A DNA stretch of 64,000 nucleotides from Promethearchaeota archaeon (GTDB taxonomy: Archaea > Asgardarchaeota > Lokiarchaeia > Sigyniarchaeales > SOKP01), in assembly GCA_016839745.1 (NCBI GenBank), contig JAEOTS010000025.1, positions 1 to 64,000 of the forward strand, in the 5' to 3' direction. Below, one piece after another: positions 1,789 to 46,993 of this stretch (its first letter is position 1; every line of letters starts with the position of its first letter). The notes beneath the pieces are model-generated. The model did no database searches and was not told where the DNA came from. It saw only the letters and a list, made by a program, of their open reading frames with translations. The position numbers and the translations under genes are program-made.

Positions 1789-1998
1789 TTGAAACAAACA
1801 GCAGATATTTTAGAAACAGGTATTATTGAAACCTATATTCCCGAGCGGAAAATGTTAGTTAAGGATTTACTCAGAGAGTTAAATCTGGAAGGGAAGTATT
1901 TTGGAATACTCATAAACGGGAAGAAAGCCGACGAAGACACTGAAATTTCTCCTAAAGATGACATTACAATACTTCCCCACATTGCTGGTGGGAACTAG
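1789..1998 (+). CDS. ThiS/MoaD/SAMP-family ubiquitin-like sulfur carrier
   Basis: 69 aa beta-grasp pattern (ILINGK...DDITILPHIAGG) ending in GG-N; TTG start after GAGGT. Confidence 0.85.
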   Translation: MKQTADILETGIIETYIPERKMLVKDLLRELNLEGKYFGILINGKKADEDTEISPKDDITILPHIAGGN

Positions 1999-2033
1999 AA
2001 ATAATTCATATCCTCTTATTTTTCTAAAGTATT

Positions 2034-3014: not shown

Positions 3015-3034
3015 AAAGCTTCATTTGGTATCCA

Positions 3035-23562: not shown

Positions 23563-24285
23563 TTGGATTTAATTACTACTTATTTAAGTTTTCCTTATGA
23601 AAAAATTGATGATGCGAATAGAATATTCATAGAAACAGTACAGAAAAATCTGATAGATCCTGATTTATTCGAAAAAAAACCCATACAACCAGTGATGATA
23701 TGGTATTCAGAAGATTATGTTATAATTACTTCTATACTTGAAGTGAAGGAAGGTAAGCTTAAAGAGGCTTTTAATTTTCTTGATATTAGAAAAAAGTGGT
23801 GGCCTCTAGAGGAAGGGTATAAAGTAGATGCTTGGGTGTCACCTCAAAGTGGAAAAACAAGGCCTACTTTTTTTGGAGAAAAGTATTTGATCTTTGTAAG
23901 CTACGCAACAAAAGATGCTCAAACCTTTAAAATTAATGAATTCGCCAAAAAATTAAAAGGCTTTCCAGAAATTAAGAAAGTTCTTTATTGGCAGGAACAT
24001 ATGCAGGATAACATCTTTAAGTTTATGAATGATAATCTAGGAAAATGTGACATAATGTTGTTATTTTGTTCAAAGAACGCGCTAAACTCCAAACCTGTTG
24101 AGAAGGAATGGACAGCAGCCGAAGCAATTGGTGTTCCAATTATTCCAATATTTATTGATACAGATCATATTCCTCCCCTTCTTAAATCAAGATTAGGTAT
24201 TGAATATGATATTAATGATATAGATAAAAATATTCGAGATTTGCGTACTTTAATCTTAAAAAAGATTAAAGGAGTATCAGACTAA
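23563..24285 (+). CDS. Soluble TIR-domain protein with a small N-terminal domain
   Basis: C-terminal TIR: IFVSYA, CDIMLLFCSKNALNSKPVEKEW, IIPIF; no TM segment. Confidence 0.85.
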   Translation: MDLITTYLSFPYEKIDDANRIFIETVQKNLIDPDLFEKKPIQPVMIWYSEDYVIITSILEVKEGKLKEAFNFLDIRKKWWPLEEGYKVDAWVSPQSGKTRPTFFGEKYLIFVSYATKDAQTFKINEFAKKLKGFPEIKKVLYWQEHMQDNIFKFMNDNLGKCDIMLLFCSKNALNSKPVEKEWTAAEAIGVPIIPIFIDTDHIPPLLKSRLGIEYDINDIDKNIRDLRTLILKKIKGVSD

Positions 24286-30443: not shown

Positions 30444-31043
30444 ATGGTGGAAAATAAGAATTTGCTTTTAGGAATCTGTGGAAGTCCCAGAAAACAAGGA
30501 ACTGCTTATGCCGTTGAATATGCCTTGACTTACGCTTCCGAAAAATTTGAGTTTGACACTGAATTCTGGACAGTAAGAGGAAAGGAAATCAAGTATTGCA
30601 CGCACTGCGACTATTGTATTAGAGAGAAAAAAGGATGCATAAATGAAGATGATGTTCAAAAACTTTATCATATGTTAGAAGAAGCCAAATTTTTGCTCAT
30701 AGGTACACCGGTGTTTCAAGGTAATCTTTCAGGGCAACTCAAAACTATATTAGATCGCTGTCGTGGATTAGTCGCTAAAAATCCTAATGTTTTTAAGGGT
30801 AAATATGGAATTGCGCTTGCAGTGGGGGGAGATCGAAGCGGAGGGCAAGAAATTGCGATTAGAAGCGTTTTAGATTTCTACCAACAAAATCATATAATAT
30901 CCGTTTCGGGTGGTGCGTTTGGAGCTAATTTGGGTGCTTCTTTATGGAGTAGGGATAATGGCAAGGAAGGAGTTCAAAAAGATCAAGAGGGATTAAAAAC
31001 AATTAGGAAAGTCATAAAAAGATTAGCAGAGTTTAAAGAATAG
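30444..31043 (+). CDS. Iron-sulfur flavoprotein (Isf) family
   Basis: GSPRK, CTHCDYC...C, GTPVF, GGDRSGGQE. Confidence 0.9.
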   Translation: MVENKNLLLGICGSPRKQGTAYAVEYALTYASEKFEFDTEFWTVRGKEIKYCTHCDYCIREKKGCINEDDVQKLYHMLEEAKFLLIGTPVFQGNLSGQLKTILDRCRGLVAKNPNVFKGKYGIALAVGGDRSGGQEIAIRSVLDFYQQNHIISVSGGAFGANLGASLWSRDNGKEGVQKDQEGLKTIRKVIKRLAEFKE

Positions 31044-31367
31044 AAAAGAAAAATAATTGTACTTATTGTACCCTATTTAACTCCAAAGAGTTTCTTAGCT
31101 TCTTTTTCTCTGAGTCCTGAGATACCCCAGAGCTCTTTAAACCAATATTTTCCATCCATAATTACAACTGGCGTATTTACAATACACCCATCTGCGTCAC
31201 AGAAAGTTTTGGTGAAATTTTTATCGTGTAACAGCTTATGAACGAATTCTTCGTCGTCTATATCATGTTCTATATACTCGACATTGTGTTTGCGGCCAAT
31301 CTTTCAATTCTGTACATCTTGAGCAATCAGTTTTTGATATTATTATTGGAATTTGCATTTTTGACAT
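30613..31367. repeat. Left copy of a diverged direct duplication (isf 3' part + grx)
   Basis: Aligns by eye, colinearly, with 44974-45730. Confidence 0.9.
31073..31367 (-). pseudogene. Frameshifted glutaredoxin-like gene (copy of 45434-45730)
   Basis: 295 nt versus 297 nt; 2-nt deletion after the Trp codon near 31295 (TGG C CGC AAA versus TGG CTT CAT AAG); CSRC motif retained. Confidence 0.85.
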
Positions 31368-31570: not shown

Positions 31571-34500
31571 TTATTTAAAGAATTTGTTGCCTCTTGACCG
31601 CATAATCTCTTGATAAAGATTCTTGATAAAAATATTAAATTGTTTTTTATCATATTTAACATTCAAGAAGTGTCCTAATATGGTTGGAATGTCATCCAAT
31701 TTTTCATAAACAGGAATAATTGTAATTAAATCCTTTTTCCTTTTTTCGAATGCTACTTGCCATTCATCTTTTACAGAAGCTGATTTCATAGAATTTTCAC
31801 TACAAAATAACACAAATACATCATATTCTTTGAGCGTTTCATCCATAAATTCCGTATAATCTGCAACTTTTTGTGCTTTATCCGATTCCCAATACATTAC
31901 TTTATCAATCTCTGGGTATTCTTCTAAACTTTTTATAACACTTAAAATTTGGAAGTGATCAATATCCAGAGTAGAATAACTTATGAAAATATTAAGCTCT
32001 TTGAATTTCTCAGGCAATAATTTAGAAACTATAGCTTTTGGTTTTATTTCTTGAGAGCGAACTTCTTCTAATAGAAGGTCCGAATCATCCCTGTCAAGAT
32101 TTAGCATCTCCCATTCTCTATAAATTTTTATGAATTGTTTAATTTGTTCGATATTCGATTGTTTGTCAAAAGCAACTGCTTTCGATTTTGAAAAGTATTC
32201 ACCATTAATCTCATTATTTTGAATCATTTCTTGTAAGACTTCAATAATGAAATCATCATCACTTATTCCAGTTTGTTCACTAATGTCAGTTATTTCTAAT
32301 CTCGCAAATTTTGTAGCTAAATTTAAAACAATTCTTTTTATTATATTAATCATTTCTAAATGTTTACTATTACATTGAGTGATTTTTTCATCACATTCGT
32401 TTAACATTTCGAATAGACCATATACTTTGCATAAATCTTTGATTTCTTCAAGGTCTTTCAGTGCATCTTTTACACTTTTTTCCTCTATCAGATGATCAAC
32501 AGTTAACAACCTATTATGAAGTTTTTGTTCGATTTTAATTTTCTTTTTGTCATATACTTTTATTTCTCTTCCTTTTTTTGGAATAATTACTCTCTTCCGA
32601 ACAACTACGAAACTTACTCCAGCTATACTAATTATACTAACAACAGTCATAATGATTACAATTAAATAATCTGGTTTCGTTATTACAGTATTTCCTTGAA
32701 ATGTATTTCCAAAACTATCTTCCTCAACATAAGCTTCATCATTTAAGTAGAAATAATTTTCAGTTATTGAATTATTGTTAGATTGTTTAAAGAATAATCC
32801 GAATTGATTACTTCCTAGGAAACTTCCACTGATGATGTTACTGTGACTCAATAATAGATAAATACCCCAACGGTTATAACTTATTGTTTCTGTATTGTTT
32901 ATAATGGAAATCAAACGACTTTCATTCAAGAAAATACCCGCTAACTTATTATGGTTCATATTACTTTCTAATATCGTGATATTCTCACAATCGTATAAAC
33001 ATACTCCATGTCCATTATTATTCGAGCAATCCAGATTAATTAATATAGCATTAGAAACATGCTCTAATTTAAGTCCTGCATCATTAAATCCTCCACCTGA
33101 GTTATGTAAAATACTATATCTTACAATGAAAAACGCAATAGAATTTCTAATTATTAAATTACTTCCAGTATTCTGACCATCAATTACTAAAAATTCAATA
33201 ATATATGGATCATTCCAAGTGCCTGAACCAAAGCACCACTCTTGAGCTTCTGCTTGATCCCAAGTGTAATTACCTGCACCAGTATCGTCAATAGTAGTAG
33301 TTTCCAAAACAACATAATCTGGGACTTTTTTAATAGATACATTTTGATAGCCGATATTTCCTACCAAATCAGCAGCATAAAAATGAATAAAAATTGTTTC
33401 AATCGGACCAGTAATAAAATTATCCCAAAGCCCTTGATCTATCTTTCCTGTTAAATCTGAAAAAGTATAATTACCTGTTATATATGTATCGTTAGATAGG
33501 GAATACCATGTGAGATCTAAATTTCCCTCAGTGATAGAAAGATTAAATTCAGGACTACTTAGTTGAAATGTCTCGTCTAATATTGGATTATGAATTGTAA
33601 TCACTGGTATTTCGATATCTTTCCCAACCATTATATCCATAAAGCTTAAAGTCCCTAAAGTATTATTTGCGTAAAATCTTATTATTACTGTTCCGTTTCC
33701 TAGAGCATCCCATTCAGCCTGATCTATAGTACCATTAGCTATAAATGTAATATTTGTGAGTCCTCCATCAAGTGTATACCACATCGAATCTATGCCATTA
33801 ACATTAGATATTTCTACATTAAAAATCGGAGGATTGTACCTAAATAAACTATTAGTAATTGGTGTATTTATTAAAATGGTTGGACCTGATAAAATATCTT
33901 TCCTGACCACAATTGAATTGGAGGCTAGATTCCCTAGGGTGTCATTCCCATAGAAAGTGATTGTTACTGTTCCATTTACTTGAGCATCCCATTCTGTCTG
34001 GTCTATGGAGCCATTAGTTATAAATATAATATTTGTGAGCCCGCCATCAAGCGTATACCACATCGTGTCAATACCATTAATAGCAGTTATTATCACATTG
34101 AAATTTGGCGCAAGAATTCCAAAAAGTTCATTAAGAATTGGAGATATGATGAAGATGTTTGGCAATTGGATATCCTTCCTAACCACAACAGAATTAGAGG
34201 CTAAATTCCCAACGGTATCATTTGCATAGAAAGTTATAGTTACAGTACCATTTGCTTGATTATCCCATTCAATTGGATCTATGGTACCATTGATTGTAAA
34301 TGTAATATTTATGAACCCGCCATCAAGCGTGTACCACATCATATCCACACCATTGATATCCGAGATTTCTACATTAAAAGTGGGGGGGAGAGGTCCAAAG
34401 AGCTCATTTGGTATAGGTGAATTAATGGTAATATTCGGAATTTCGATATCTTTTCGAACTACTACGGAATTAGAAGCTATATTCCCTAAGGTATCGTTTG

Positions 34501-37500
34501 CGTAGAAAATTATGGTAACGGTTCCATTTGATAGAGCATCCCATTCTGTCTGATCAATTGTCCCATTAGTTATAAATGTAATATTGGTTATACCTCCATC
34601 AAGTGTATACCACATTGTATCTACAATATTAATAGCAGTTATTTCTACATTATAGTTCGGAGAAGTATACCCAAACAAGTTATTTGAAGCTGGAGTATTT
34701 ATTAAAATGGTTGGACCAGATAAAATATCTTTCCTAACTACTAAAGAATTGGAAGCTAGATTCCCTAGGGTGTCATTCCCATAGAAAGTGATGGTTACAG
34801 TTCCATTCCCTTGAGCATCCCATTCTGTCTGATCTATTGTTCCATTAGCTATAAATGTTATATTAGTTAAACCTCCATCAAGTGTATACCACATTGTATC
34901 TATTCCGTTGATATCCGAAATTTCCACAGTAAAATTTGGTGCAAGGGCTCCAAAGAGCTCGTTTGGAAGGGGGAAATTAATGATAATATTTGGTAATTCG
35001 ATATCCTTACGTACTACAACAGAACTAGAAGCTAAATTCCCAACGGTATCATTTGCATAGAATATGATGGTAAGAGTTCCATTTGATTGAGCATCCCATT
35101 CAGTCTGGTCTATGGTACCATTGGTTATAAATGTAACATTAGTTATACCTCCGTCAAGCGTATACCACATTGCACCTATTCCATTGATATCGGTAATTTC
35201 TACAGTAAAAGATGGCGCAAGAGATCCAAAGAGCTCATTTGGTAAAGGTGAAATAATGTTAATATTAGGAACTTCGATATCCTTCCGAACTACAACAGAA
35301 CTAGAGTCAAAATTTCCAATGGTATCATTAGCATAGAATGTGATGGTAACAGTCCCATTTGATTGAGCATCCCATTCTGTCTGATCAATGGTTCCATTGG
35401 TTATAAATGTAATATTCGTGAGCCCGCCATTAAGTGTATACCACATTGTATCTATTCCATTGATATCAGCAATTTCTACAGTAAAAGTTGGTGCAAGAGA
35501 TCCAAAGAGCTCATTTGGTAAAGGAGAAATAATAAAAATATTAGGAGCTTCGATATCCTTCCGAACTACAACAGAATTAAAGGCTAGATTTCCTAGGGTG
35601 TCATTCCCATAAAAAGTTATGGTTATGGTTCCATTCCCTTGAGCATCCCATTCGATCTGATCAATGTTCCCGTTAGCTATAAACGTGATATTTATGAGCC
35701 CGCCATCAAGTGTATACCACATCGTATCTATTCCGTTGATATCCGTAATTTCAACGTTAAAAGTTGGTGCGATAACTCCAAAGAGCTCATTAGGAAGAGG
35801 TGAATTTATGATAATATCTGGCAATTCGATATCTTTCCTAACAATTACAGAATTAGAAGCTAAATTCCCAATAGTATCATTTGCATAGAAATTGATCGTA
35901 ACGGTACCATTTACCCGATTATCCCATTCTGTCTGATCAATGGTCCCATTGGTTATAAATGTAATATTCGTGAGCCCGCCATCAAGTGTATACCACATTG
36001 TATCTATTCCATTGATATCCGAAATTTCTACTGAAAAAATTGGCGCCAGGGATCCAAAGAGCTCATTAGGAAGAGGTGAATTTATGAAAATATCTGGCAA
36101 TTCGATATCTTTCCTAACAATTACAGAATTAGAAGCTAAATTCCCAACGGTATCATTTGCATAGAATGTGATGGTAACAGTTCCATTTGATTGAGCATCC
36201 CATTCAGTCTGGTCTATAGTACCATTGGTTATAAATGTAATATTCGTGAGCCCGCCATCAAGTGTATACCACATTGTATCTATTCCGTTGATATCGGTAA
36301 TTTCCACAGTAAAGGTTGGTGCAAGAGATCCAAAAAGCTCATTTGGTAAAGGAGAAATAATAAAAATATTAGGAAGTTCGATATCTTTCAGAATTACAAC
36401 AGAATTAAAGGCTAGATTTCCTATGGTATCATTCGCATAAAAATTTATAGTTAGGGTGCCATTTCCTTGAGCATCCCATTCAGTCTGGTATATAGTACCA
36501 TTGGTTATAAATGTAATATTCGTGAGCCCGCCATCAAGTGTATACCACATTGTATCTATTCCGTTGATATCCGTTATTTCAACATTAAAAGTTGGTGCAA
36601 TAACTCCAAAGAGCTCATTTGGAAGAGGTGAATTTATGATAATATTTGGTAGTTCGATATCTTTCCTAACTGCTACTGAATTAAAGGCTAGGTTTCCAAT
36701 AGTATCATTTGCATAGAAAGTGATCGTAACGGTACCATTTACCCGATTATCCCATTCTGTCTGATCAATGGTTCCATTAGCAATAAATGTAATATTTGTG
36801 AGGCCTCCATCGAGTGTATACCACATCATATCTATTCCATTGATATCCGAAATTTCTACATCAAACGATGGCGCAAGAGACCCAAAGAGCTCATTTAGTA
36901 AAGGTGAATTAATATTTATATCTGGTATTTCGACGTCCTTCCGAACTACAACAGAATTAGAAGCTAAATTCCCAACGGTATCATTTGTATAGAAAATGAC
37001 GGTAATCGTTCCATTTACTTGATTATCCCATTCAATTTGGTCTATGGTACCATTGGTTATAAATGTAATATTAGTTAAACCTCCGTCAAGCGTGTACCAC
37101 ATTACATCTATTCCGTTGATATCAGTAATTTCCACAATATAAGTTGGCGTTAGGACTCCGAAAAGTTCATTTGATAAAGGAGAAATAATAATAATATCTG
37201 GCGCTACGATATCTTTCCTAACTAAAACAGCAGCAGAGGCCAGCTTTCCAAGTGTACCATTCACATAGAAAGTAATTAATACTGTTCCATTTGCTAATTT
37301 ATTCCATTCAATCTGATCAATAGTCCCATTAGCTATAAATGTAATATTTGTGAGACCACCATCAAGCGTATACCACATTGTATCTACGCCATCTGTATCG
37401 TTTATTTCTACATTAAAATTTGGAGAAGTGATCCCAAATAAACTGTTTGAAATCGGCGCATTTATTACAACAGTTGGAACCGATTCAATTCCATCATCCC

Positions 37501-40500
37501 ATATTGGAAAATTATCTTGACTTCCTGCGGTACCAGGTATTAAATATGGACTATCTCCTATTCCATCATCATTTGCATCTACTCCTCCATAATCATCCCA
37601 ATAATTACCAATAGTTCCATTATCCCAATCATTATTCGTTCCATTATCGAGTGCGTTGATACCATTTCCTATAATTAAATTATTAAAAATTAAAGAATAA
37701 TTAGCTTCTGTTAAAAAAAATCCATAATTAATAGTATTATTTATGGTGTTTCCCGAAATAACATTATCAATATTTTCGAATAAATATATTCCATAGAGGT
37801 CATAGTTATTTACTATATTATTCGAGATTATGTTACTACTACTATTAAGAAGTATTCCTATCCCAAAACCAGTTGGAAACCAGTTGGAATTAATGGTGTT
37901 TCCTGTAATACTGTTATTATTACTATACAATGAAACTATCCCAAAGTTGTTACTATTTAAGGTGTTTCCTGTAATGTTATTATTATTACACTCGCTTATC
38001 CATATACCATAATAGTTTCCTGAAATCGAGTTGTTTCCTGAAATTGAGTTATTTACACTCCTTCCCAGGTATATCCCACGAGAATTATTTGAACAATTGT
38101 TTCTTGTAGATAGTGAATTAGTAACATTAACCAATTCAATCCCCGCTCTTGTTGAATTGAATACAGTACAATTTTCAATTCTAAAATATACATCAGAATT
38201 TTCAATGTAAATACAACTAACCGAATTGTTTTGAGCATTAATTGCTAAATCTTCTATTACATAAGGATCCGAACTTGTACCCTGTCCAGTACACTTTCCT
38301 GCATCTTTAAAATATTGCCACTCTTGATTACCCTCTAAATAAATAGTCTGTGGAGCTATTGCACTGTCCTGTGTCACATCATAAAAGCTTAATATCCCCA
38401 ACGCATTCGATTGAAATCCAAGAATATGACTTCGATAGGCGTCATAATTATACGGAATACAACCATATGCCCATGGCATATCATCTTCAACTAAAAGTTG
38501 TTGGATTCTTTCGTAAAATACTTTCCTTGCATTTGGATCAGTTTCGAATAATGCTGCTTCCATTAAAAGCTGCACATTGGCCCAAGGATCAAATGGATCT
38601 CTACCCGCTCCCATTGCTGCTGTATAACCATTATATTGAACTCCATTATATGCGATAGATCTATTAGTGAAATGTGGGTTGATATAATTGCTTGGATCAA
38701 CATAATCAGGACCCCATCCCATCCAAAAGAGTTCCAGCATATTTCTTGTATAGGGAGGAATTTCAACCAATCTATAAAAATAATCCGTCCAGGTCATGCC
38801 CTCATCAGTAACTTCGATTCCTATTTTATCAAGATTATTTTGCAATAAAGGTAAAATATTTTCGCGAAGGGTGTTACCTATATTATAAGTATAATTGAAA
38901 GTGCGGAATGATGCGGCAGACCATAGAGCCTCATCCATTCCGGGGTAATTTGCGTCCCATCCTATTCCAAAGCCCATACTTTGCATGATTTCTCTAGCTT
39001 GTGTTATGTTGTATATTGCAACATCAAAGGACCAATTGGCGTAGGGCATATTTTCAGGTATAGGCGACTTTAATCTTACGGCATTTCCTCCATATAATTC
39101 ATCAATAATGTAAGAGTAGTTTATTGCATACGAAATTGCTTTTCGCCATGTATTATTAATAATTTGATTATTCATACCGAGATATTGAACAATCATGCTT
39201 TGTCCAGCGTTAAATAACGTAATATCGGGATCAGCATCAAAAGTTGAAAACATTGAAGTCAATGGATCAACCAGTAAGTCAACTTCACCTGATAACAGTG
39301 CGTTATTTCTGTCTACTGCATCTGGAATAATGGAAAATTTAAGGATGGAAACATTGGCTTTTCCTGCCCAGTAATTCTCAAAAGCGTGAAACTTTACTTC
39401 ATTATCAGGTAAATAATGATCATAAACAAACGGACCTGTCCCTATTAAATCACCTGTAGTGGTATTAATAGCTGCAAATTGAGGTGTAGATATAGGAGAT
39501 AGAATATATGAACCAGGAAAGCACAATAAATTATCAAATACACCATAAGGTTTATTCAACTCGAATCTAATTGTATATTCATCTACAATTACAGTATCGT
39601 TAATAATAGGAAAATACATACTAACATCAGGATCATAATATTGATAAAGTTCAGCCGCATAAGCCATAGTATTATTTATGAAGTATGCTAACCTATCAAA
39701 AGAAAATTTTACTGCAGTCGCGTTAAATTTAGTTCCATCGTGGAAAATTACATTAGACCTGAGAGAAACAGTGTACCATGTGTCTGTGGAATTGATCATC
39801 CATGTACCCATTGATGTTGCAAGATTTGGTATAACTGGTAAATTAGGATCCGATATTTTATATTTAAATAAACCCTCACACACTTGATATATTACATCAA
39901 ATGATACTGTATCATAAGCAACGTGAGGATCAAGATCAAATGGACCATAAGCAGTACCAAAAACAATTTTAAATATATCATCTCCTTGGTCGATCCCATC
40001 ATCCCAAATTGGAAAGTTATCTTGACTTACTGTTGGGCCAGATATTGGATAAGATGTATCCCCCATTCCGTCATCATTTTCATCTACTCCTGGATAATCA
40101 TCCCAAAAATTACCAAGACTTCCATTATCCCATGAATTGCTAATCAAACTTTCAAAAGCATTGATATTATTTGAGATAAATGAATTGTTATAAATTAGAA
40201 TGCTATTACTATTATTTACATTCATTCCATATTGAACATTATTATTTACATTATTACCAGTGATGGTAAAGTTGGTATTAAGATTGAATAGATGTATCCC
40301 TACGCCGTTATTTGAACAATTGTTCCCAATTATTTGTCCATTACTAGCATTTAGCAATTTAATTCCTGCATCTGCAGAATTAAATAATGTACAATTTTCA
40401 ATTCTAAAATATACCTCAGAATTTTCAATAAAAATACAACTAACAGATTCATTTTGGCCATCGATTACTAAATCTTCGATTACATAAGGATCAGAAATTG

Positions 40501-42430
40501 TGCCCTCTCCCGTGCATTTACTTGCGTTTTTAAAATATTGCCATTCTTGATTACCATCTAAATATATCGTTTGTGGGGCAATCGCACTATTTTGGGTAAC
40601 ACCACGAAAATCTAAAATTTCCATAGCGTTCGATTGAAATCCAAGAATACGGCTCCGATAGGCATCATAATTGCGCGTGACGAAACAAAATGCCCATGGC
40701 ATATCTTCTTCTACAAGAATTTCTTGAATCCTATTGTAATATGATTCTCTTATATTTTGATTGGTTTCGAATAATGCTGCTTCCATTAAAAGTTGTACAT
40801 TATCCCATAGATTAAACGGATCTCTACCAGATTCTATCGCTGCCCAATAGCCATTATACATACCATTATTCCAACTACTAAGATCAAGTGTTCTATTGGT
40901 TAACATACTATTGATATAATTACTTGGGTCATTATAGTCATGCCCCCAACCCATCCAGAAGAGTTGCAGCATCTTCCAGCCATCCACTCCTAAAATAAAC
41001 AATCTATCTAGATATTCTGACCAGGTCATACCAGCATCAGTAACTTCGATACCAATTTTATCAAGATTATTTTGTAATAAAGGTAAAATATCTTCTCGAA
41101 ATGAGTTGCCTATATTATAGGTATAATTGTAAGTCTCGAATGATGCGGCAGACCATAGAGCCTCATCACTTCCGGGATAAGTTGTATCCCAAGCTACTCC
41201 AAAACCCATACTTTGCATTATTTCTCTTGCTTTAGAAACATTATATGTTGCTACATCAAGCGACCAGTTAGCGAATATTATACTTTCAGGAAGAGGAGAC
41301 TCTAATCTCAGTGCGTTTCCTTCACGTAATTCATTAAGAATATAAGAATAGTTAATAGCATAAGAAATTGCGTTTCTAAAAGTAACATTGATATAATAAT
41401 TACTCATTACAAGAGGCGAAATTACTGTCCCCTGTCCAGCGTCAATTAACGTAATATCAGGATCAGCATCAAGAGTAGAAAACATTGAGGAATATGGATT
41501 AAGTATTAAGTCGACTTCACCTGATAACAATGCGTTGTTTCTGTCTACTGCATCTGGAATAATGGAAAATTTAAGGATTGTAATATTTGCTTTTCCTGCC
41601 CAATAATTCTCAAAAGCGTGAAATTTTACTTCATCATCGGGTATATAATGGTCATAAACAAACGGCCCTGTACCGACTAGAGTTCCAGTAGTGATATTAA
41701 TATACTCAAATTGAGGTGTAGATGTGGGAGATAAAATATATGATCCAGGAAAGCATAATAATGCCTCGAATGGTCCATATGGCTTATTCAACTCGAATCT
41801 AATTGTATATTCATCGATAATAACAGTGTCACTAATAATAGGGAAAGTAGTTCCGAGATCAGGATCAAAATATTCATAAAGTGTAGCTGCGGTAGCCATA
41901 GAATTATTTATAAAATATTTTAACCTTTCAAAAGTAAATTTTACTGCTGTTGCGTTAAATTTAGTTCCATCGTGAAAAATCACATTAGGTCGAAGGGACA
42001 CGGTATACCATGTGTCTGTAGAATTAATCATCCATGTACCTTTTGATGTTGCTAAACGGGGTATAATCTGTAAATTTTGATCGGTTAAATTGTATGTGAA
42101 TAAACCTTCGCAAACTTGATCTATCACATTATATGAATTAGAATCCCAAGAGTTTTGAGGATCAAGATCATATGGACCAGCCTGAGTACCAAATACTAAC
42201 TTAAATATATTATTATCTTGATTACTAGAGTTGAGATCTTTATCGTAAGAAATTAGTCCCTCTCTAGTTTTAGCATTTATATTTATATTCGAATTTATTA
42301 TGAAATTTGAAAAAAATATAATTAAGAGGAAAAATAAAATTAAAACTCGTTTTAATTTCTTATTGAATTTTATTGAATATGATTTACCTTTTATATTCCT
42401 ATATAGACGAATATTGACTTTGGATTTCAT
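31571..42430 (-). CDS. Giant membrane TIR receptor: 2x[SBP family 5 + beta-helix], 15 Ig-like repeats, beta-helix, TM, PCI-like winged helix, TIR
   Basis: N-terminal hydrophobic segment; SBP_5 motifs (LDP, FHDGTKFNA, GTGPF, W..DY.DP) twice; NosD/CASH-type N-rich coils; 92-aa repeats; TM at ~32600-32670; TIR IFISYS...DVFVLFCSENS..S..VKDEW. Confidence 0.9.
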   Translation of the reverse strand: MKSKVNIRLYRNIKGKSYSIKFNKKLKRVLILFFLLIIFFSNFIINSNININAKTREGLISYDKDLNSSNQDNNIFKLVFGTQAGPYDLDPQNSWDSNSYNVIDQVCEGLFTYNLTDQNLQIIPRLATSKGTWMINSTDTWYTVSLRPNVIFHDGTKFNATAVKFTFERLKYFINNSMATAATLYEYFDPDLGTTFPIISDTVIIDEYTIRFELNKPYGPFEALLCFPGSYILSPTSTPQFEYINITTGTLVGTGPFVYDHYIPDDEVKFHAFENYWAGKANITILKFSIIPDAVDRNNALLSGEVDLILNPYSSMFSTLDADPDITLIDAGQGTVISPLVMSNYYINVTFRNAISYAINYSYILNELREGNALRLESPLPESIIFANWSLDVATYNVSKAREIMQSMGFGVAWDTTYPGSDEALWSAASFETYNYTYNIGNSFREDILPLLQNNLDKIGIEVTDAGMTWSEYLDRLFILGVDGWKMLQLFWMGWGHDYNDPSNYINSMLTNRTLDLSSWNNGMYNGYWAAIESGRDPFNLWDNVQLLMEAALFETNQNIRESYYNRIQEILVEEDMPWAFCFVTRNYDAYRSRILGFQSNAMEILDFRGVTQNSAIAPQTIYLDGNQEWQYFKNASKCTGEGTISDPYVIEDLVIDGQNESVSCIFIENSEVYFRIENCTLFNSADAGIKLLNASNGQIIGNNCSNNGVGIHLFNLNTNFTITGNNVNNNVQYGMNVNNSNSILIYNNSFISNNINAFESLISNSWDNGSLGNFWDDYPGVDENDDGMGDTSYPISGPTVSQDNFPIWDDGIDQGDDIFKIVFGTAYGPFDLDPHVAYDTVSFDVIYQVCEGLFKYKISDPNLPVIPNLATSMGTWMINSTDTWYTVSLRSNVIFHDGTKFNATAVKFSFDRLAYFINNTMAYAAELYQYYDPDVSMYFPIINDTVIVDEYTIRFELNKPYGVFDNLLCFPGSYILSPISTPQFAAINTTTGDLIGTGPFVYDHYLPDNEVKFHAFENYWAGKANVSILKFSIIPDAVDRNNALLSGEVDLLVDPLTSMFSTFDADPDITLFNAGQSMIVQYLGMNNQIINNTWRKAISYAINYSYIIDELYGGNAVRLKSPIPENMPYANWSFDVAIYNITQAREIMQSMGFGIGWDANYPGMDEALWSAASFRTFNYTYNIGNTLRENILPLLQNNLDKIGIEVTDEGMTWTDYFYRLVEIPPYTRNMLELFWMGWGPDYVDPSNYINPHFTNRSIAYNGVQYNGYTAAMGAGRDPFDPWANVQLLMEAALFETDPNARKVFYERIQQLLVEDDMPWAYGCIPYNYDAYRSHILGFQSNALGILSFYDVTQDSAIAPQTIYLEGNQEWQYFKDAGKCTGQGTSSDPYVIEDLAINAQNNSVSCIYIENSDVYFRIENCTVFNSTRAGIELVNVTNSLSTRNNCSNNSRGIYLGRSVNNSISGNNSISGNYYGIWISECNNNNITGNTLNSNNFGIVSLYSNNNSITGNTINSNWFPTGFGIGILLNSSSNIISNNIVNNYDLYGIYLFENIDNVISGNTINNTINYGFFLTEANYSLIFNNLIIGNGINALDNGTNNDWDNGTIGNYWDDYGGVDANDDGIGDSPYLIPGTAGSQDNFPIWDDGIESVPTVVINAPISNSLFGITSPNFNVEINDTDGVDTMWYTLDGGLTNITFIANGTIDQIEWNKLANGTVLITFYVNGTLGKLASAAVLVRKDIVAPDIIIISPLSNELFGVLTPTYIVEITDINGIDVMWYTLDGGLTNITFITNGTIDQIEWDNQVNGTITVIFYTNDTVGNLASNSVVVRKDVEIPDININSPLLNELFGSLAPSFDVEISDINGIDMMWYTLDGGLTNITFIANGTIDQTEWDNRVNGTVTITFYANDTIGNLAFNSVAVRKDIELPNIIINSPLPNELFGVIAPTFNVEITDINGIDTMWYTLDGGLTNITFITNGTIYQTEWDAQGNGTLTINFYANDTIGNLAFNSVVILKDIELPNIFIISPLPNELFGSLAPTFTVEITDINGIDTMWYTLDGGLTNITFITNGTIDQTEWDAQSNGTVTITFYANDTVGNLASNSVIVRKDIELPDIFINSPLPNELFGSLAPIFSVEISDINGIDTMWYTLDGGLTNITFITNGTIDQTEWDNRVNGTVTINFYANDTIGNLASNSVIVRKDIELPDIIINSPLPNELFGVIAPTFNVEITDINGIDTMWYTLDGGLINITFIANGNIDQIEWDAQGNGTITITFYGNDTLGNLAFNSVVVRKDIEAPNIFIISPLPNELFGSLAPTFTVEIADINGIDTMWYTLNGGLTNITFITNGTIDQTEWDAQSNGTVTITFYANDTIGNFDSSSVVVRKDIEVPNINIISPLPNELFGSLAPSFTVEITDINGIGAMWYTLDGGITNVTFITNGTIDQTEWDAQSNGTLTIIFYANDTVGNLASSSVVVRKDIELPNIIINFPLPNELFGALAPNFTVEISDINGIDTMWYTLDGGLTNITFIANGTIDQTEWDAQGNGTVTITFYGNDTLGNLASNSLVVRKDILSGPTILINTPASNNLFGYTSPNYNVEITAINIVDTMWYTLDGGITNITFITNGTIDQTEWDALSNGTVTIIFYANDTLGNIASNSVVVRKDIEIPNITINSPIPNELFGPLPPTFNVEISDINGVDMMWYTLDGGFINITFTINGTIDPIEWDNQANGTVTITFYANDTVGNLASNSVVVRKDIQLPNIFIISPILNELFGILAPNFNVIITAINGIDTMWYTLDGGLTNIIFITNGSIDQTEWDAQVNGTVTITFYGNDTLGNLASNSIVVRKDILSGPTILINTPITNSLFRYNPPIFNVEISNVNGIDSMWYTLDGGLTNITFIANGTIDQAEWDALGNGTVIIRFYANNTLGTLSFMDIMVGKDIEIPVITIHNPILDETFQLSSPEFNLSITEGNLDLTWYSLSNDTYITGNYTFSDLTGKIDQGLWDNFITGPIETIFIHFYAADLVGNIGYQNVSIKKVPDYVVLETTTIDDTGAGNYTWDQAEAQEWCFGSGTWNDPYIIEFLVIDGQNTGSNLIIRNSIAFFIVRYSILHNSGGGFNDAGLKLEHVSNAILINLDCSNNNGHGVCLYDCENITILESNMNHNKLAGIFLNESRLISIINNTETISYNRWGIYLLLSHSNIISGSFLGSNQFGLFFKQSNNNSITENYFYLNDEAYVEEDSFGNTFQGNTVITKPDYLIVIIMTVVSIISIAGVSFVVVRKRVIIPKKGREIKVYDKKKIKIEQKLHNRLLTVDHLIEEKSVKDALKDLEEIKDLCKVYGLFEMLNECDEKITQCNSKHLEMINIIKRIVLNLATKFARLEITDISEQTGISDDDFIIEVLQEMIQNNEINGEYFSKSKAVAFDKQSNIEQIKQFIKIYREWEMLNLDRDDSDLLLEEVRSQEIKPKAIVSKLLPEKFKELNIFISYSTLDIDHFQILSVIKSLEEYPEIDKVMYWESDKAQKVADYTEFMDETLKEYDVFVLFCSENSMKSASVKDEWQVAFEKRKKDLITIIPVYEKLDDIPTILGHFLNVKYDKKQFNIFIKNLYQEIMRSRGNKFFK
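33325..37477 (-). repeat. Intragenic tandem array: 14 conserved + 1 divergent ~276-bp units encoding Ig-like domains
   Basis: Unit P.I.I.SP..NELFG...MWYTLDGGLTNITF..NGTIDQ.EWD...NGTV.I.FYANDT.GN....V.V.KD; the 276-nt period also shows in antisense ORFs at 35112/35388/35664/35940. Confidence 0.95.
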
Positions 42431-42511
42431 TTTATCAAATTATGTCTTTGTATAGAAAGAATTGAAGTCTTGGAATTCTTTTAGAATCAATATTAACTAA
42501 ATATATAATGA

Positions 42512-42570
42512 CTAATGATAAATAGGATGTTCATCTTTTTAAGACTTTATCTTTTTGACATTTTATTCTA
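42512..42570 (-). promoter_or_regulatory. Conserved upstream element of TIR receptor 1
   Basis: TAATGATAAATAGGATGTT.ATCTTTTTAAG.CTTTAT.TTTTTGACA is nearly identical to 44603-44660. Confidence 0.7.
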
Positions 42571-42643
42571 AATTTATTATTTTAAAAACGGTTATTGAAA
42601 TAACTTAAGAATCTAGTATATATTTTTAATAGAAACTTTATAT

Positions 42644-44521
42644 TTAAGCGATTATCTCGGGAATTCTTCTGCCCTTTGAGCGCATAATCTCCTGATAAAG
42701 TTCGGTGGTAAAACTATTAAAATCAGTTTTATCATATTTAACATTTAAAAAGTGACCTAATATTACTGGAATGTGTTCGGCTTGTTCATAAACTGGAATA
42801 ATTGTAACTAATCCCTTTTTCCTTCTCTGGAATGCTGCTTGCCACTCATCTCTTACAGAAACGGATTTCATGGAGTTTTCACTACAAAATAAAACAAACA
42901 CATCGCAATTTTCAAGCATTTTATCCATATATTCTACAATATTTTGTGTACTATCCGCCTCCCAATACATTACTTTGTTAATATCTGGGTATTCTTCTAA
43001 ACTTTTTGCAACTCGTGATATCTGAAAATGATCTGTATCTATAGTGGAATAACTTAAAAAGACATTAAGATCTTTGAATTCATCAGGTTTAGACTTAGAA
43101 ATTATTGCTTTCGATCTTAATTCCCGAGGTAGAATCTCTTCTATTAGAAAGTCCGAATCATCCCTATCAAGGTTATTTTTCTCCCATTCTCCGTACGTTT
43201 TTATGAGGTTCTCAATTTGTTCGATATTCGATTGTTGATCAAAATTAATTCTTTTTGAAAAGTATTCAGCATATACCTCATTATTTTGAATCATATCTTC
43301 TATAACTTCAATAATGAAATCTTCATCATTTATTCCAGTTTTTTCACTAATATCAGTTATTTCTAATCTCGCAAATTTAGTAGCTAAATTTATCACAATT
43401 CTTTTAATTATATTAATCATCTCTAAGTACAAATAATTACAATGTTCAATTTTTTCATCACAATCGTTTATCATTTCAAATAGACCATATACGTTGCATA
43501 AATCCTTAATCTCTTCCAGATTTTTGAGAGCCTCTTTTACATTTTTTTCCCTTATCAAGTAGTCAATAAAGGATAACCTATCATGAAGATTTTCTTCGAC
43601 TTTAATTTTTGTTTTTCCGTCTACTTTCACTTCTCCTCTTTTTTTAGGAATAATTACTCTCTTCCAAATAGTTAGGATACTTACAGCGGATACACCAACT
43701 ATAATAACGATAATTATAATGGTTAAAAGTAATACATTAAATTTCGGTATTATTTCATTATTTTTAAAACTATTATTTTGACTATCTTCAAGATCATAAG
43801 CTTCATTATTTTCCATAAAGATATTTTCAATTATAGAATTATTGCTCGATTGCTTAAGAAATAATCCTAATTGATTATATCCTATAAAGTTTCCACTGAT
43901 GTTGTTATTATGACTCATTAAGAGAAAAATACCCCTTACCTTATTATTGTTCAGATCACTTTCTAATATAGAAATATTCTGAGAGTTATCCAAACAAACC
44001 CCATGGTCTTTGTTGTTTGAGCAATCTATATTAATTAATTTACCATTTGAAACATTTACTAATTTAACTCCCGCATCATTAGCTCCTCCACCAGAATTAT
44101 AGAAAATACTATCTCTTATAATGAAAAACACACTAGAATTTCTAATTATTAAACAACTTGCACCATTCTGACCATCAATTTCTAAGGATTCAATAATATA
44201 AGGATCATTCCAAGTACCAGAGCCATTACACCATTCTTGAGCTTGTGCTTGAGTCCAAGTGTAATCTCCTTCTCCAGTATCGTCAATAATCATCGATTCT
44301 GAAATATAATTATCTGATACTTTAATAATAGAAACATCTTGAGATCCAATATCCTTATTATATGGCAATTGATTGAGTCTAATTGTGAAAATTAAGCAGA
44401 ATAATACCAAGATGAAAAATAGTAATGAAACTCTCTTTAAAGTTAAATTTTTATTTGAATTAATTGAAACTGAATTTTTACTTTTATCCTTAGAGACACT
44501 AGCATTAACTTTAGATTTCAT
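42644..44521 (-). CDS. Short membrane TIR receptor paralog: beta-helix, TM, PCI-like winged helix, TIR
   Basis: Shares the MKSKVN start (ATG 44521 preferred over 44563), the last beta-helix, TM and cytoplasmic region with 31571-42430; TIR VFLSYS...SVRDEW. Confidence 0.9.
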   Translation of the reverse strand: MKSKVNASVSKDKSKNSVSINSNKNLTLKRVSLLFFILVLFCLIFTIRLNQLPYNKDIGSQDVSIIKVSDNYISESMIIDDTGEGDYTWTQAQAQEWCNGSGTWNDPYIIESLEIDGQNGASCLIIRNSSVFFIIRDSIFYNSGGGANDAGVKLVNVSNGKLINIDCSNNKDHGVCLDNSQNISILESDLNNNKVRGIFLLMSHNNNISGNFIGYNQLGLFLKQSSNNSIIENIFMENNEAYDLEDSQNNSFKNNEIIPKFNVLLLTIIIIVIIVGVSAVSILTIWKRVIIPKKRGEVKVDGKTKIKVEENLHDRLSFIDYLIREKNVKEALKNLEEIKDLCNVYGLFEMINDCDEKIEHCNYLYLEMINIIKRIVINLATKFARLEITDISEKTGINDEDFIIEVIEDMIQNNEVYAEYFSKRINFDQQSNIEQIENLIKTYGEWEKNNLDRDDSDFLIEEILPRELRSKAIISKSKPDEFKDLNVFLSYSTIDTDHFQISRVAKSLEEYPDINKVMYWEADSTQNIVEYMDKMLENCDVFVLFCSENSMKSVSVRDEWQAAFQRRKKGLVTIIPVYEQAEHIPVILGHFLNVKYDKTDFNSFTTELYQEIMRSKGRRIPEIIA

Positions 44522-44602
44522 TTTATCAAATTTGGTATTTGTGATAAAGGGATTAAAATCCAAGAAATCTTTTAAAATCGATATACAAAGTTGTATATTG
44601 AT

Positions 44603-44660
44603 TAATGATAAATAGGATGTTTATCTTTTTAAGGCTTTATTTTTTTGACACTATATACTA
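44603..44660 (-). promoter_or_regulatory. Conserved upstream element of TIR receptor 2
   Basis: Near-identical to 42512-42570 and at the same distance from the MKSKVN start. Confidence 0.7.
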
Positions 44661-44717: not shown

Positions 44718-44973
44718 TTAAGATTCTAAATCAGGGGTTTTAGATAACAAATAATTGTAAACATCAGTAATTTCGTCCTTAAAGTAGGCGGCTCTAATCA
44801 TATAAATTATCATTAAGAGTTCTTTTCCTCCCCGCGCTAATTCTGATTCAATATAAAAAATGTGATTAATTGTTTGGTACTTTCTAAAAGTAAATATAAA
44901 AATTCCTTCTTCCTCAGTGAATTCTAGAATTCTACCTAAATCTGGATGTTCTTGAGTATTTAATGGGGAACTA
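44718..44973 (-). pseudogene. Internal fragment of the longin-GTPase gene (copy of 46670-46925)
   Basis: 256 bp colinear; translates SSPLNTQEHPDLGRILEF...RGGKELLMI...SKTPDLES*; the 5' end is missing; TAC changed to TAA. Confidence 0.9.
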
Positions 44974-45404
44974 ATTGTATTAGAGAAAAAAAAGGGTGCA
45001 TTAATGAAGATGATGAATAAAAACTTTATCGCATGTTAGAAGAAGCCAAATTTTTGCTTATAGGTACACCGGTATTTCAAGGTAGTCTTTCAGGGCAGCT
45101 AAAAACTGTATTAGATCGCTGTCGTGGATTAGTCGCTAAAAACCCTAATGTATTTAAGGGTAAATATGGAATTGCGCTTGCAGTGGGGGGAGATCGAAGC
45201 GGAGGTCAAGAAATTGCGATTAGAGGCATCTTAGATTTTTACCAACAAAATCATATAATAACGATTTCTGGAGGCGCATTCGGAGCTAACTTGGGTGCCT
45301 CTTTATGGAGTAGGGATAGAGGTAAGGAAGGAGTTCAAAACGATGAAGTGGGATTAAGAACTATTAGGAAAGTCATAAAAAGATTAGCAGAATTTAAAGA
45401 ATAG
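44974..45404 (+). pseudogene. 5'-truncated iron-sulfur flavoprotein copy
   Basis: Matches 30613-31043; lacks the GSPRK and CxxC N-terminus; GTT CAA changed to GAA TAA (in-frame stop) before the ORF called at 45033. Confidence 0.85.
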
Positions 45405-45433
45405 AAAAGAAAAATAATAGTACTTATTCTAAC

Positions 45434-45730
45434 TTATTTTACTCCAAAGAGTTTCTTAGCTTCTTTTTCTCTGAGTCCGGAGATACCCCAGAGCTCTTTA
45501 AACCAATATTTTCCGTCCATTATTACAACTGGCGTATTTACAATACACCCATCTGCATCACAGAAAGTTTTGGTGAAATTTTTATCGTGTAATAACTTAT
45601 GTGTGAATTCCTCGTCGTCTATATCACGTTCTATGTATTCGACATCGTGCTTATGAAGCCACTCTTTCAATTCTGCGCACCTATGACAATCAGTTTTTGA
45701 TATTACTATTGGGACTTGCATTTTGCTCAT
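45434..45730 (-). CDS. Glutaredoxin-like protein
   Basis: SKTDCHRC active site, VEYIERDI, TPVV cis-Pro loop, extra CDADGC. Confidence 0.85.
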   Translation of the reverse strand: MSKMQVPIVISKTDCHRCAELKEWLHKHDVEYIERDIDDEEFTHKLLHDKNFTKTFCDADGCIVNTPVVIMDGKYWFKELWGISGLREKEAKKLFGVK

Positions 45731-45949: not shown

Positions 45950-46993
45950 TTATATCATTTTTTTTAACAACCAACGAATTGCATTGATAATTTTATCATT
46001 TTCATTAAGAACATTAATAGAGAAATATTCTATAGATAGTCCACACTCTTCTAACTCCACCATGTTGAATTTCTCATAAATCATATTCGAGGTTATTTCC
46101 TCTTTATCGTCAAATTTATTGCCAATAATAAGTATTGGCATAGTATCTCCCTTATCCTGGCATCTATTTAATACCAACTGGAACATTTCAATGGTTTCTT
46201 TAATAGAGTCCTTAGTAGAGGCATTAAAGATTAAGATAAAGCCCTGAGCATTATCTATACAATCTTCATACAAACTAGTTCGTTCATCATCCGTATCCTC
46301 ATCAATACATTCGTACGTCAAAACTTCGATGTTATCAATTATGAAGTCGTAAATTTTGCTAGATAAATCTCGCTTCATATTGTTATTTTTATATTGTAGG
46401 AATTGTATAACCTCCAAATTTTTAACGAGCTCTGTTTTTCCTGCGTTTCTAGGGCCAAAAATATAAATCTTCTTTAAATTTCCTTTATCTAATAAATGAG
46501 TCGTTAAATCTAGCTGTGGGCTCATTTTTTCTAGATATTTGTTGAAGAGCCTAAAGAATTCTTTTTTAAATTTTTTCGATGCTACGCTAAGAGTTTCTTT
46601 TTGATTTACACGATTTTTATGGTTGTGTAGTACTTCTTTGAGTTCTCGAAGATTTTTGAGTTCTGAAGCGTAAGATTCGAGATCAGGGGTTTTAGATAAC
46701 AAATAATTGTAAACATCAGTAATTTCGTCTTTGAAGTAAGCGGCTCTAATCATAAAAGTTATCATTAAGAGTTCTTTTCCCCCTCGCGCAAATTCTGAGT
46801 CAATATAAAAAATGTGATTAATGGTTTGATACTTCCTATAAGTAAAAATAAAATTTCCTTCTAGATCAGTGAAATCCAGAATTCTACCTAAATCGGGGTG
46901 CTCTTGGGTATTCAATGGGGAACTACAATACAAGTTAGTGGGTCCGAGAGTAGTGTCAAAATATGACACACAAAGGATAACCTCTTTTGGCAT
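45950..46993 (-). CDS. Longin/uDENN-like domain fused to a divergent Ras-superfamily GTPase
   Basis: N-terminal SYFDTTLGP and FARGG motifs; C-terminal GPRNAGKT (G1), GNKFD (G4); no DxxG. Confidence 0.75.
   Translation of the reverse strand: MPKEVILCVSYFDTTLGPTNLYCSSPLNTQEHPDLGRILDFTDLEGNFIFTYRKYQTINHIFYIDSEFARGGKELLMITFMIRAAYFKDEITDVYNYLLSKTPDLESYASELKNLRELKEVLHNHKNRVNQKETLSVASKKFKKEFFRLFNKYLEKMSPQLDLTTHLLDKGNLKKIYIFGPRNAGKTELVKNLEVIQFLQYKNNNMKRDLSSKIYDFIIDNIEVLTYECIDEDTDDERTSLYEDCIDNAQGFILIFNASTKDSIKETIEMFQLVLNRCQDKGDTMPILIIGNKFDDKEEITSNMIYEKFNMVELEECGLSIEYFSINVLNENDKIINAIRWLLKKMI

What the first reader, a model, noticed from the sequence alone, without database searches (positions are those of the whole stretch)
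31571..44521. Pair of Toll-like-topology transmembrane TIR receptors in an archaeon
Seen: two tandem co-oriented genes share an N-terminal hydrophobic segment, a membrane-proximal beta-helix, a C-proximal TM, a helical/PCI-like winged-helix segment and a terminal TIR domain. They differ only in ectodomain, ~3200 aa versus ~250 aa. Known: ectodomain-TM-TIR is the layout of Toll/IL-1 receptors, and TIR domains act through induced clustering, in prokaryotes usually as NADases or signal makers (Thoeris ThsB, TIR-STING, TIR-SAVED). Inference: this is a surface-sensing system in which a long sensor and a short co-receptor couple an extracellular cue (peptides, viruses or partner cells) to TIR activity. 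It would be a modular analogue of TLR signalling without LRRs. I cannot tell from here whether it has been described.
Basis: partly seen in the sequence, partly recalled or inferred. Interest (0 to 1): 0.93.

Follow-up and report, generated by a model that had tools for sequence, protein, structure and literature searches.

The report
Paired surface TIR receptors in Asgard
An Asgard archaeon carries a movable two-gene cassette of surface proteins laid out like animal Toll-like receptors (outside domain, one membrane helix, inside TIR domain); the giant one has peptide-binding-type heads and an altered TIR, the small one a standard enzyme-type TIR, which points to an untested outside-in NAD+-cleaving pathway that I found in no paper.

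Summary
Two intact tandem paralogues (3619 and 625 aa, 62% identical over 592 aa) share an N-terminal hydrophobic segment, beta-helix, TM, helical/PCI-like winged helix and TIR. The long one adds two family-5 solute-binding domains, two more beta-helices and 15 Ig-like repeats. Charge and glycosylation patterns put the ectodomain outside and the TIR inside.

Both belong to a large family with swappable ectodomains; all named hits were Asgard, and this scan noted it before on other DNA.

New here:
- The short-then-long cassette recurs at other chromosomal sites (two complete, a probable third) but is in only 3 of 42 genus genomes.
- Both genes are under purifying selection.
- Only the long lineage has a 3-residue BB-loop insertion.
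- The catalytic Glu is kept but the cyclising Trp is not, so linear ADPR or NAD+ loss is predicted, not a Thoeris-type cyclic signal.

An obligate co-receptor pair is unproven: one relative has a single recombinant gene, another a frameshifted short gene. These are not TLRs (no LRR, enzyme-type TIR). Ligand and activity are untested.

The parts
31571..42430 (-). Long receptor gene, 3619 aa, intact
42290..42346 (-). Long: N-terminal hydrophobic segment (aa 29-47), signal peptide or anchor; cleavage not tested
40601..42205 (-). Long: family-5 solute-binding domain 1 (aa 76-610), closest solved relatives DppA/HbpA
40145..40558 (-). Long: beta-helix 1 (from aa 625)
38384..39973 (-). Long: family-5 solute-binding domain 2 (aa 820-1349), 72% identical to domain 1
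37544..38335 (-). Long: beta-helix 2 (aa 1366-1629)
33326..37441 (-). Long: 15 Ig-like repeats of about 92 aa (aa 1664-3035), 37-91% identical to one another
   Evidence: Big_7 E 1e-5
32681..33310 (-). Long: membrane-proximal beta-helix (aa 3041-3250), shared with the short protein
32606..32662 (-). Long: transmembrane helix (about aa 3257-3275), basic residues on its C-terminal side
32114..32566 (-). Long: three-helix unit plus PCI-like winged helix (aa 3289-3439)
31595..31996 (-). Long: TIR domain (aa 3479-3612), catalytic-position Glu kept, 3-residue BB-loop insertion specific to the long lineage
42442..42559 (-). Promoter-like element upstream of the long gene, conserved in all copies
42644..44521 (-). 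Short receptor gene, 625 aa, intact
44375..44431 (-). Short: N-terminal hydrophobic segment (aa 31-49)
43748..44311 (-). Short: beta-helix ectodomain (aa 71-258)
43676..43732 (-). Short: transmembrane helix (about aa 264-282)
43187..43636 (-). Short: three-helix unit plus PCI-like winged helix (aa 296-445)
42677..43069 (-). Short: canonical family TIR (aa 485-615), Glu559 at the catalytic position, Ser555 where cyclase TIRs have Trp
44533..44649 (-). Promoter-like element upstream of the short gene, near the 5' edge of the moving cassette
30613..31361 (+). Left copy of a 90%-identical direct duplication: 3' part of the intact flavoprotein gene plus a frameshifted glutaredoxin
44719..44973 (-). 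Fragment (codons 23-109, then a stop) of the GTPase gene at 45950-46993
44974..45724 (+). Right copy of the duplication: 5'-truncated flavoprotein gene plus intact glutaredoxin

Best explanation
These are two type-I-like membrane receptors on an accessory cassette that has moved between chromosomal sites. Shown: ectodomain outside and TIR inside (sequence statistics), TIR fold, catalytic-position Glu conserved, purifying selection on both genes. Inferred step 1: the long protein displays two dipeptide-binding-type domains on a 15-Ig stalk. A closure movement is unlikely to pass through such a stalk, so the signal is more likely clustering, when a multivalent surface (a virion, another cell, a peptide-decorated polymer) binds several heads. 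Inferred step 2: clustering, helped by the helical/PCI-like module, brings TIR domains into the head-to-tail assembly that builds the active site. Inferred step 3: the TIR cleaves NAD+ to linear ADP-ribose and nicotinamide rather than to a cyclic messenger, so the output is NAD+ loss (dormancy or abortive death) or ADPR as a signal. Inferred step 4, the weakest (about 0.35): the long TIR, with its altered BB loop, nucleates, and the canonical short TIR supplies or amplifies the activity. A defence or contact role is somewhat more likely than nutrient sensing (about 55:45).
For: Topology: 115 N-X-S/T sequons in the long ectodomain against 56 expected, and none in either cytoplasmic part; across 76 single-pass relatives, 23% of ectodomain Asn against 4% of cytoplasmic Asn lie in sequons, and net charge is more positive after the TM in 76 of 76. 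An extracellular solute-binding protein is N-glycosylated at such sequons in Promethearchaeum (PMC11284389). TIR fold. Glu kept in 112 of 114 family TIRs and aligned with the plant TIR catalytic motif. The Trp position is Ala/Ser/Pro/Thr in 188 of 192; an aromatic residue there marks cyclase TIRs, and two TIRs and an intact BB loop are needed for activity (10.1101/2022.05.07.491051). No SLOG reader found in this genome or in G019. The ABC permeases and their own binding proteins lie on other contigs. The cassette is patchy (3 of 42), sits at unrelated sites, and this site is empty in relatives. The BB-loop insertion is in 5 of 165 TIRs, all of the long lineage.
Against: No activity, ligand, expression or interaction was measured. 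Loss of the Trp lowers activity in AbTir and abolishes it in two plant TIRs, so the family may be weak or inactive enzymes. The neighbours are housekeeping genes, not defence islands. Solute-binding heads normally bind small monovalent ligands, which do not cluster receptors by themselves. Ectodomain dN/dS stays below 1 (0.24-0.43), so there is no sign of an arms race. The pair has collapsed to one gene in G019, and the short gene is frameshifted in L037; either could be an assembly or sequencing error.
Confidence: 0.5

Rival explanations
1. Same outside-in TIR enzyme, but the two genes are independent paralogues of an expanding and contracting tandem array, each with its own promoter; the short one is a minimal receptor, not a co-receptor.
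For: Each copy has its own upstream element. Copy number is 1 in G019, 2 here and in G063, and 3 in L037. G019 carries a short-5'/long-3' recombinant, and the long gene of L037 has a short-type 3' end. Arrays of up to five TIR genes and many single genes occur in the family.
Against: The short and long lineages stay distinct (about 70% identical in the cytoplasmic part) and move together in the same order. The TIR asymmetry is lineage-specific.
Confidence: 0.45
2. The receptors sense nutrients (peptides or amino acids) and adjust metabolism or growth through ADPR or NAD+ level; they have no immune role.
For: Relatives swap in family-5 peptide-binding, branched-chain amino acid and ANF-type binding domains. 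A free family-5 binding protein is encoded next to the receptor in L034. Neighbours are metabolic genes. There is no match on plasmids or viral contigs.
Against: Patchy presence, relocation and quick changes in stalk length (0, 4 or 15 Ig repeats in orthologues) suit accessory conflict or adhesion genes. Many family ectodomains have no recognised small-molecule-binding domain (26, 84).
Confidence: 0.3
3. The TIRs are non-enzymatic scaffolds, as in animal TLRs, and recruit soluble TIR proteins (the genome has TPR-TIR, WD40-TIR and two small TIR proteins).
For: The WxxxE Trp is missing. Four soluble TIR proteins of the same broad subfamily are in this genome. The structural matches include MyD88, MAL and IL-18R TIRs, tied with enzyme TIRs.
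Against: The Glu is nearly invariant. The nearby 240-aa TIR was not found in G063, which has the full pair.
Confidence: 0.15
4. Ordinary surface or adhesion proteins that picked up a TIR tail with no coupling across the membrane.
For: This genome has at least ten surface proteins with the same beta-helix, Ig or binding domains and cytoplasmic tails of only 3-21 residues.
Against: The cytoplasmic part is the most constrained part of the short gene (dN/dS 0.13-0.18). More than 100 single-pass proteins keep this TIR behind many different ectodomains.
Confidence: 0.08
5. Assembly chimera or artefact.
For: The cassette is flanked by a 90%-identical duplication, and reads could not be checked.
Against: Independent assemblies give the same chassis and gene order. 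There is no exact repeat of 100 bp or more inside the long gene. The duplicate flanks carry a frameshift and a stop, which suggests real decay.
Confidence: 0.02

Closest known systems
Animal Toll-like and IL-1 receptors (and Hydra TRR-2)
   Same: Ectodomain, single TM, cytoplasmic TIR; the TIR fold matches IL-18Rbeta, IL-1RAcPb, MyD88 and TRR-2 at Z 12-13; a receptor/accessory pairing is conceivable.
   Different: No LRR ectodomain. Solute-binding domains and beta-helices take its place, the Ig-like repeats are of bacterial type, and there is an extra helical/PCI-like module. The TIR keeps the enzyme Glu, whereas TLR TIRs are scaffolds (PMC11249213). TIR identity is only 12-25% with no preference for animal TIRs, so the layout is most likely convergent (phylogeny not run).
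Prokaryotic TIR NADase effectors (Cat1, SPARTA TIR-APAZ, TIR-STING, TIR-SAVED)
   Same: Sensor domain fused to a TIR that is switched on by assembly. Cat1 is the top structural match (Z 15.3, tied with the RPS4/RRS1 entry), and SPARTA tops Foldseek.
   Different: Their sensors are cytoplasmic and read nucleic acids or cyclic nucleotides. Here the sensor lies across the membrane, and no Argonaute, cyclase or CRISPR gene was seen among the neighbours scanned.
Thoeris (ThsB TIR plus ThsA)
   Same: TIR domain with weak ThsB profile hits (E 1.7e-4). Other branches of this family often sit beside a RelA_SpoT-TPR-SLOG gene (10 of 41 loci).
   Different: No ThsA-like or SLOG gene is near this pair or was found in this genome, and the cyclase Trp is absent.
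Receptors that use periplasmic-binding-protein ectodomains (class C GPCRs, natriuretic-peptide receptors, SBP-fused kinases; from general knowledge)
   Same: A transporter-type binding fold reused as a receptor head; relatives carry ANF_receptor/Peripla_BP_6 heads.
   Different: The output is TIR, the heads here are family 5, and a long Ig stalk separates the heads from the membrane.
Plant paired TIR-NLRs (RRS1/RPS4; from general knowledge)
   Same: Neighbouring gene pair with a divergent sensor TIR and a conserved partner TIR, as an analogy for the asymmetry seen here.
   Different: Cytoplasmic NB-ARC/LRR proteins, head-to-head genes; no homology beyond the TIR fold.

Membership tests
Toll-like receptors | Single-pass membrane protein with cytoplasmic TIR | tested here: met
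   (no dedicated topology predictor available)
Toll-like receptors | Leucine-rich-repeat ectodomain | tested here: not met
   Pfam and NCBIfam assign the ectodomain to SBP_bac_5, beta-helix and Ig-like repeats, leaving no room for an LRR solenoid
Toll-like receptors | Non-enzymatic TIR signalling through MyD88-type adaptors | tested here: inconclusive
   Glu kept; soluble TIR proteins exist in the genome, but no link was shown
Toll-like receptors | TIR descends from the metazoan TLR/IL-1R clade | not tested
   No eukaryotic sequences on hand for a tree; structural matches are tied across TIR classes
IL-1 receptor family | Ectodomain of up to three metazoan Ig domains binding a cytokine | tested here: not met
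   The repeats are 15 bacterial-type Ig (Big_7) units in the long protein and absent in the short one (29, 117)
TIR NADases | TIR fold | tested here: met
TIR NADases | Catalytic Glu in helix C | tested here: met
TIR NADases | Assembly-dependent NAD+ cleavage | not testable with these tools
   needs an assay
cADPR-isomer-producing TIRs | Aromatic residue four positions before the Glu | tested here: not met
   Ser in both proteins; aromatic in 2 of 192 family TIRs (rule from 10.1101/2022.05.07.491051)
Thoeris | Linked ThsA-type effector (SIR2-SLOG or Macro-TM) | tested here: not met
   No such neighbour in the flanks scanned; no SLOG match in the genome (89% complete); SIR2 and Macro hits lie on other contigs
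PCI domain proteins | Helical repeats followed by a winged helix | tested here: inconclusive
   The model shows three helices plus a winged helix; Foldseek's top rows are almost all CSN/lid/eIF3 subunits but at E 2e-3 and low TM; VIA Z about 8; Pfam PCI is borderline
ABC transporter family-5 binding proteins | SBP_bac_5 fold | tested here: met
ABC transporter family-5 binding proteins | Linked permease and ATPase genes | tested here: not met
   All ten permease matches are on other contigs

The most novel reading that the evidence does not exclude
Asgard archaea evolved, independently of animals, a modular family of cell-surface TIR receptors. This cassette is a dedicated sensor/helper pair in which a giant peptide-binding receptor with a modified TIR nucleates a small canonical TIR NADase across the membrane: a prokaryotic outside-in, receptor/co-receptor immune or contact-sensing pathway.
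Probability: 0.25. Interest if true: 0.9.

Novelty: new variant of a known kind. Interest (0 to 1): 0.72.

Why it matters
In the prokaryotic TIR systems covered by the papers read here, the sensors are cytoplasmic, and a TIR wired to an extracellular domain through one membrane helix is the signature of animal Toll/IL-1 receptors. [quoted passage not shown] A recent preprint judged receptor function unlikely for Asgard LRR proteins (10.64898/2026.10.28.762692), and none of the searches or papers here described these proteins. This locus is a good test case. It has a minimal 625-aa member that is easy to express, a natural TIR asymmetry between the two partners, and a clear product prediction (linear ADPR).

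Tried and rejected
Tools that did not run:
- The atlas fold library was unavailable; no SignalP/DeepTMHMM was on hand.

Partner genes considered:
- The 526-aa gene next to TIR receptors in other genomes was rejected as a partner. It is a conserved single-copy gene present in genomes without TIR matches and was not found in several that have them.
- The RelA_SpoT-TPR-SLOG gene is the commonest neighbour of other branches. It was not found in this genome or G019, and gave only weak partial hits in G063.
- The ARPP-1 neighbour in L032 marks the insertion site; its orthologue here is on another contig (55).
- The 240-aa soluble TIR at 23563-24285 was not found in G063 (127).

Other negative results:
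- The upstream element occurs only before the two receptor genes, so it reveals no regulon.
- No relatives in plasmids or viral contigs, and no mobility gene among the flanking ORFs scanned.
- Sigma-70 promoter scan: no more sites than chance.
- A label-change count on a TIR tree was printed without controls and is not used.
- Literature searches found no description; most subscription papers are not covered.
Full report
Observation. The window holds two intact minus-strand genes: 31571-42430 (3619 aa) and 42644-44521 (625 aa). Pfam gives TIR_2 above cut-off at the C-terminus of both, beta-helix domains in both, two SBP_bac_5 domains in the long one, and only weak PCI hits. The short protein aligns with the last 592 residues of the long one at 62% identity. 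The long ectodomain reads: binding domain (76-610), beta-helix, binding domain (820-1349), beta-helix, 15 Ig-like repeats (1664-3035), beta-helix, TM at about 3257. The binding domains are closest to dipeptide- and heme-binding proteins among solved structures.

Topology. No topology predictor was available, so I used two independent signals. The long ectodomain has 115 N-X-S/T sequons against 56 expected, and neither cytoplasmic part has any. Over 76 single-pass relatives, 23% of ectodomain Asn but 4% of cytoplasmic Asn lie in sequons, and net charge is more positive after the TM in all 76. Relatives are not independent, but the direction is uniform. An extracellular solute-binding protein of Promethearchaeum is glycosylated at such sequons (PMC11284389). 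Whether the N-terminal segment is cleaved is untested; the TIR stays inside either way.

Cytoplasmic part. A model of the short protein's tail shows three helices, a winged helix, a disordered linker and a five-stranded TIR. The TIR matches Cat1 (Z 15.3, rmsd 1.7, 118 residues), RPS4/RRS1, IL-18Rbeta, MyD88 and SARM1, with no preference for animal receptors. For the middle module, Foldseek's top rows are nearly all COP9, proteasome-lid and eIF3 PCI subunits, but at E about 2e-3 and low TM; VIA gives Z about 8. 'PCI-like' is fair; membership is not shown.

Active site. Glu559 of the short protein aligns with the catalytic motif of a plant TIR and is kept in 112 of 114 family TIRs. Four positions before it, where all tested cyclase TIRs have an aromatic residue (10.1101/2022.05.07.491051), both proteins have Ser, and the family has Ala, Ser, Pro or Thr in 188 of 192. 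The prediction is linear ADPR rather than 2'/3'-cADPR. The same paper shows that losing this Trp can also lower or abolish activity, so the enzyme claim remains an inference.

Family. Searches returned 77 plus 36 close relatives and 624 representatives at E below 1e-10. A pattern-seeded scan of one genome for each of 185,579 species gave 38 loci, all named ones Asgard, mostly Promethearchaeota; that scan would miss distant bacterial TIRs. The same TIR sits behind family-5 binding domains, branched-chain amino acid/ANF binding domains, FN3, PKD, Ig, FG-GAP and LVIVD propellers, four-TM units and cytoplasmic LRRs. Of 211 TIR proteins classed, 103 are single-pass. This genome has seven TIR genes, including TPR, WD40 and multi-TM fusions, and many surface proteins with the same ectodomain modules but almost no tail. 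The scan's notes report this family from at least ten other genomes; I treat them as leads only.

The pair. The short-then-long arrangement recurs beside glyoxalase/ARPP-1 genes in GCA_016840545.1, beside ribonucleotide reductase in a JGI contig, and probably beside a sulfatase in Logan contigs, where the downstream long ORF could not be read. Short and long copies form two lineages: in the helical/winged-helix and TIR parts, short orthologues are 86-90% identical to ours and long ones 80-96%, while the paralogues are about 70% identical. Both are under purifying selection. The short tail is the most constrained part (dN/dS 0.13-0.18) and the long TIR is looser (0.30-0.32). A 3-residue insertion that breaks the conserved BB-loop motif occurs in 5 of 165 TIRs, all of the long lineage. 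An intact BB loop is needed for activity in AbTir. This asymmetry is the best evidence for a sensor/helper division.

Against an obligate pair. G019 has one gene whose first 200 bases are short-type and whose remainder is long-type. In L037 the short gene is frameshifted inside the TIR, the long gene has a short-type 3' end, and a third copy follows. Either case could be an assembly or sequencing error. Every copy has its own upstream element, found nowhere else in this genome. Long orthologues carry one or two binding domains and 0, 4 or 15 Ig repeats.

Accessory nature. The close clade was found in 3 of 42 genus genomes. DNA similarity between loci runs from the short gene's promoter to the long gene's stop. 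In eight of ten relatives examined, flavoprotein, glutaredoxin and GTPase genes are contiguous. Here that segment is duplicated at 90% identity and the cassette replaces part of the first copy, leaving a frameshifted glutaredoxin and a GTPase fragment. The decay argues for a real event. The long gene contains no exact repeat of 100 bp. Reads could not be checked.

Output partner. A RelA_SpoT-TPR-SLOG gene neighbours other branches of the family in 10 of 41 loci. It was not found in this genome (89% complete) or in G019. No ABC permease is near the pair. With the missing Trp, this favours the TIR acting directly on NAD+ or making ADPR.

Mechanism. Most likely (0.5): multivalent binding outside clusters the receptors, the TIRs assemble and cleave NAD+, and the cell slows or dies, or reads ADPR. 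Fifteen Ig repeats make allosteric transfer from the binding domains to the membrane unlikely; this is my inference. The rival readings are not all exclusive. Independent paralogues (0.45) is more likely than a required co-receptor (0.35). Nutrient sensing stands at 0.3, a scaffold TIR at 0.15, a passenger TIR at 0.08 and an artefact at 0.02.

Comparison and novelty. The proteins are laid out like Toll/IL-1 receptors but are not members: no LRR, bacterial-type modules, and an enzyme-type TIR (PMC11249213 and PMC8635717 for the scaffold/enzyme split). They are not Thoeris. Eight literature searches and the Asgard reviews and defence surveys I opened did not describe them. One preprint calls receptor function unlikely for Asgard LRR proteins. 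Databases name them only by domain. I class the finding as a new variant of a known kind (assembly-activated TIR proteins), with an input, extracellular and transmembrane, that I could not find described in prokaryotes. Interest 0.72.

Noticed in passing
window 23563-24285 (+): Soluble 240-aa TIR_2 protein with an unassigned N-terminal domain and the catalytic-position Glu; its N-terminal part was found in only 3 of 42 genus genomes, and not in G063.
   Followed up: partly
window 45950-46993 (-): 347-aa protein with an unassigned N-terminal domain fused to a small-GTPase domain; single copy in 19 of 24 genus relatives and not found outside the genus at E 1e-40.
   Followed up: partly
G000 C157:34842-36089, C40:4796-8152, C89:625-4314, C21:5226-5924: Other TIR fusions of the same broad subfamily: multi-TM-TIR, TPR-like-TIR, WD40-TIR and a small helical-TIR protein.
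   Followed up: partly
G000 C26:16736-20185: Beta-helix ectodomain, TM and a 515-aa cytoplasmic tail ending in WD40-like repeats: the same receptor layout with a different inner module.
   Followed up: no
G000 C46:39729-41621, C147:22677-26783, C162:274-3429, C154:2399-4999: Four SIR2-like domain plus TPR-like proteins, a second NAD+-consuming sensor-type family in this genome.
   Followed up: partly
proteins P0048, P0055, P0058, P0059: Soluble LRR-(PCI)-TIR proteins of 483-485 aa in Promethearchaeota, with no TM; LRR and TIR in one Asgard protein.
   Followed up: partly
L068:7029-9599 and nine other loci: RelA_SpoT-like, TPR and SLOG fusion of about 856 aa directly beside TIR receptors of other branches; split into two ORFs in L027/L079.
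   Followed up: partly
L034:326-4720: A free family-5 binding protein ends 22 bases before a beta-helix-TM-TIR gene that lacks an N-terminal hydrophobic segment: a split form or a broken fusion.
   Followed up: no
L031 (G017:C77:55500-64800): Cluster of at least four genes carrying the same PCI-like winged helix without a TIR.
   Followed up: no
L073:10867-13029, L074, L071, L084: Convergent LRR-PCI gene next to TIR receptors in four loci.
   Followed up: no
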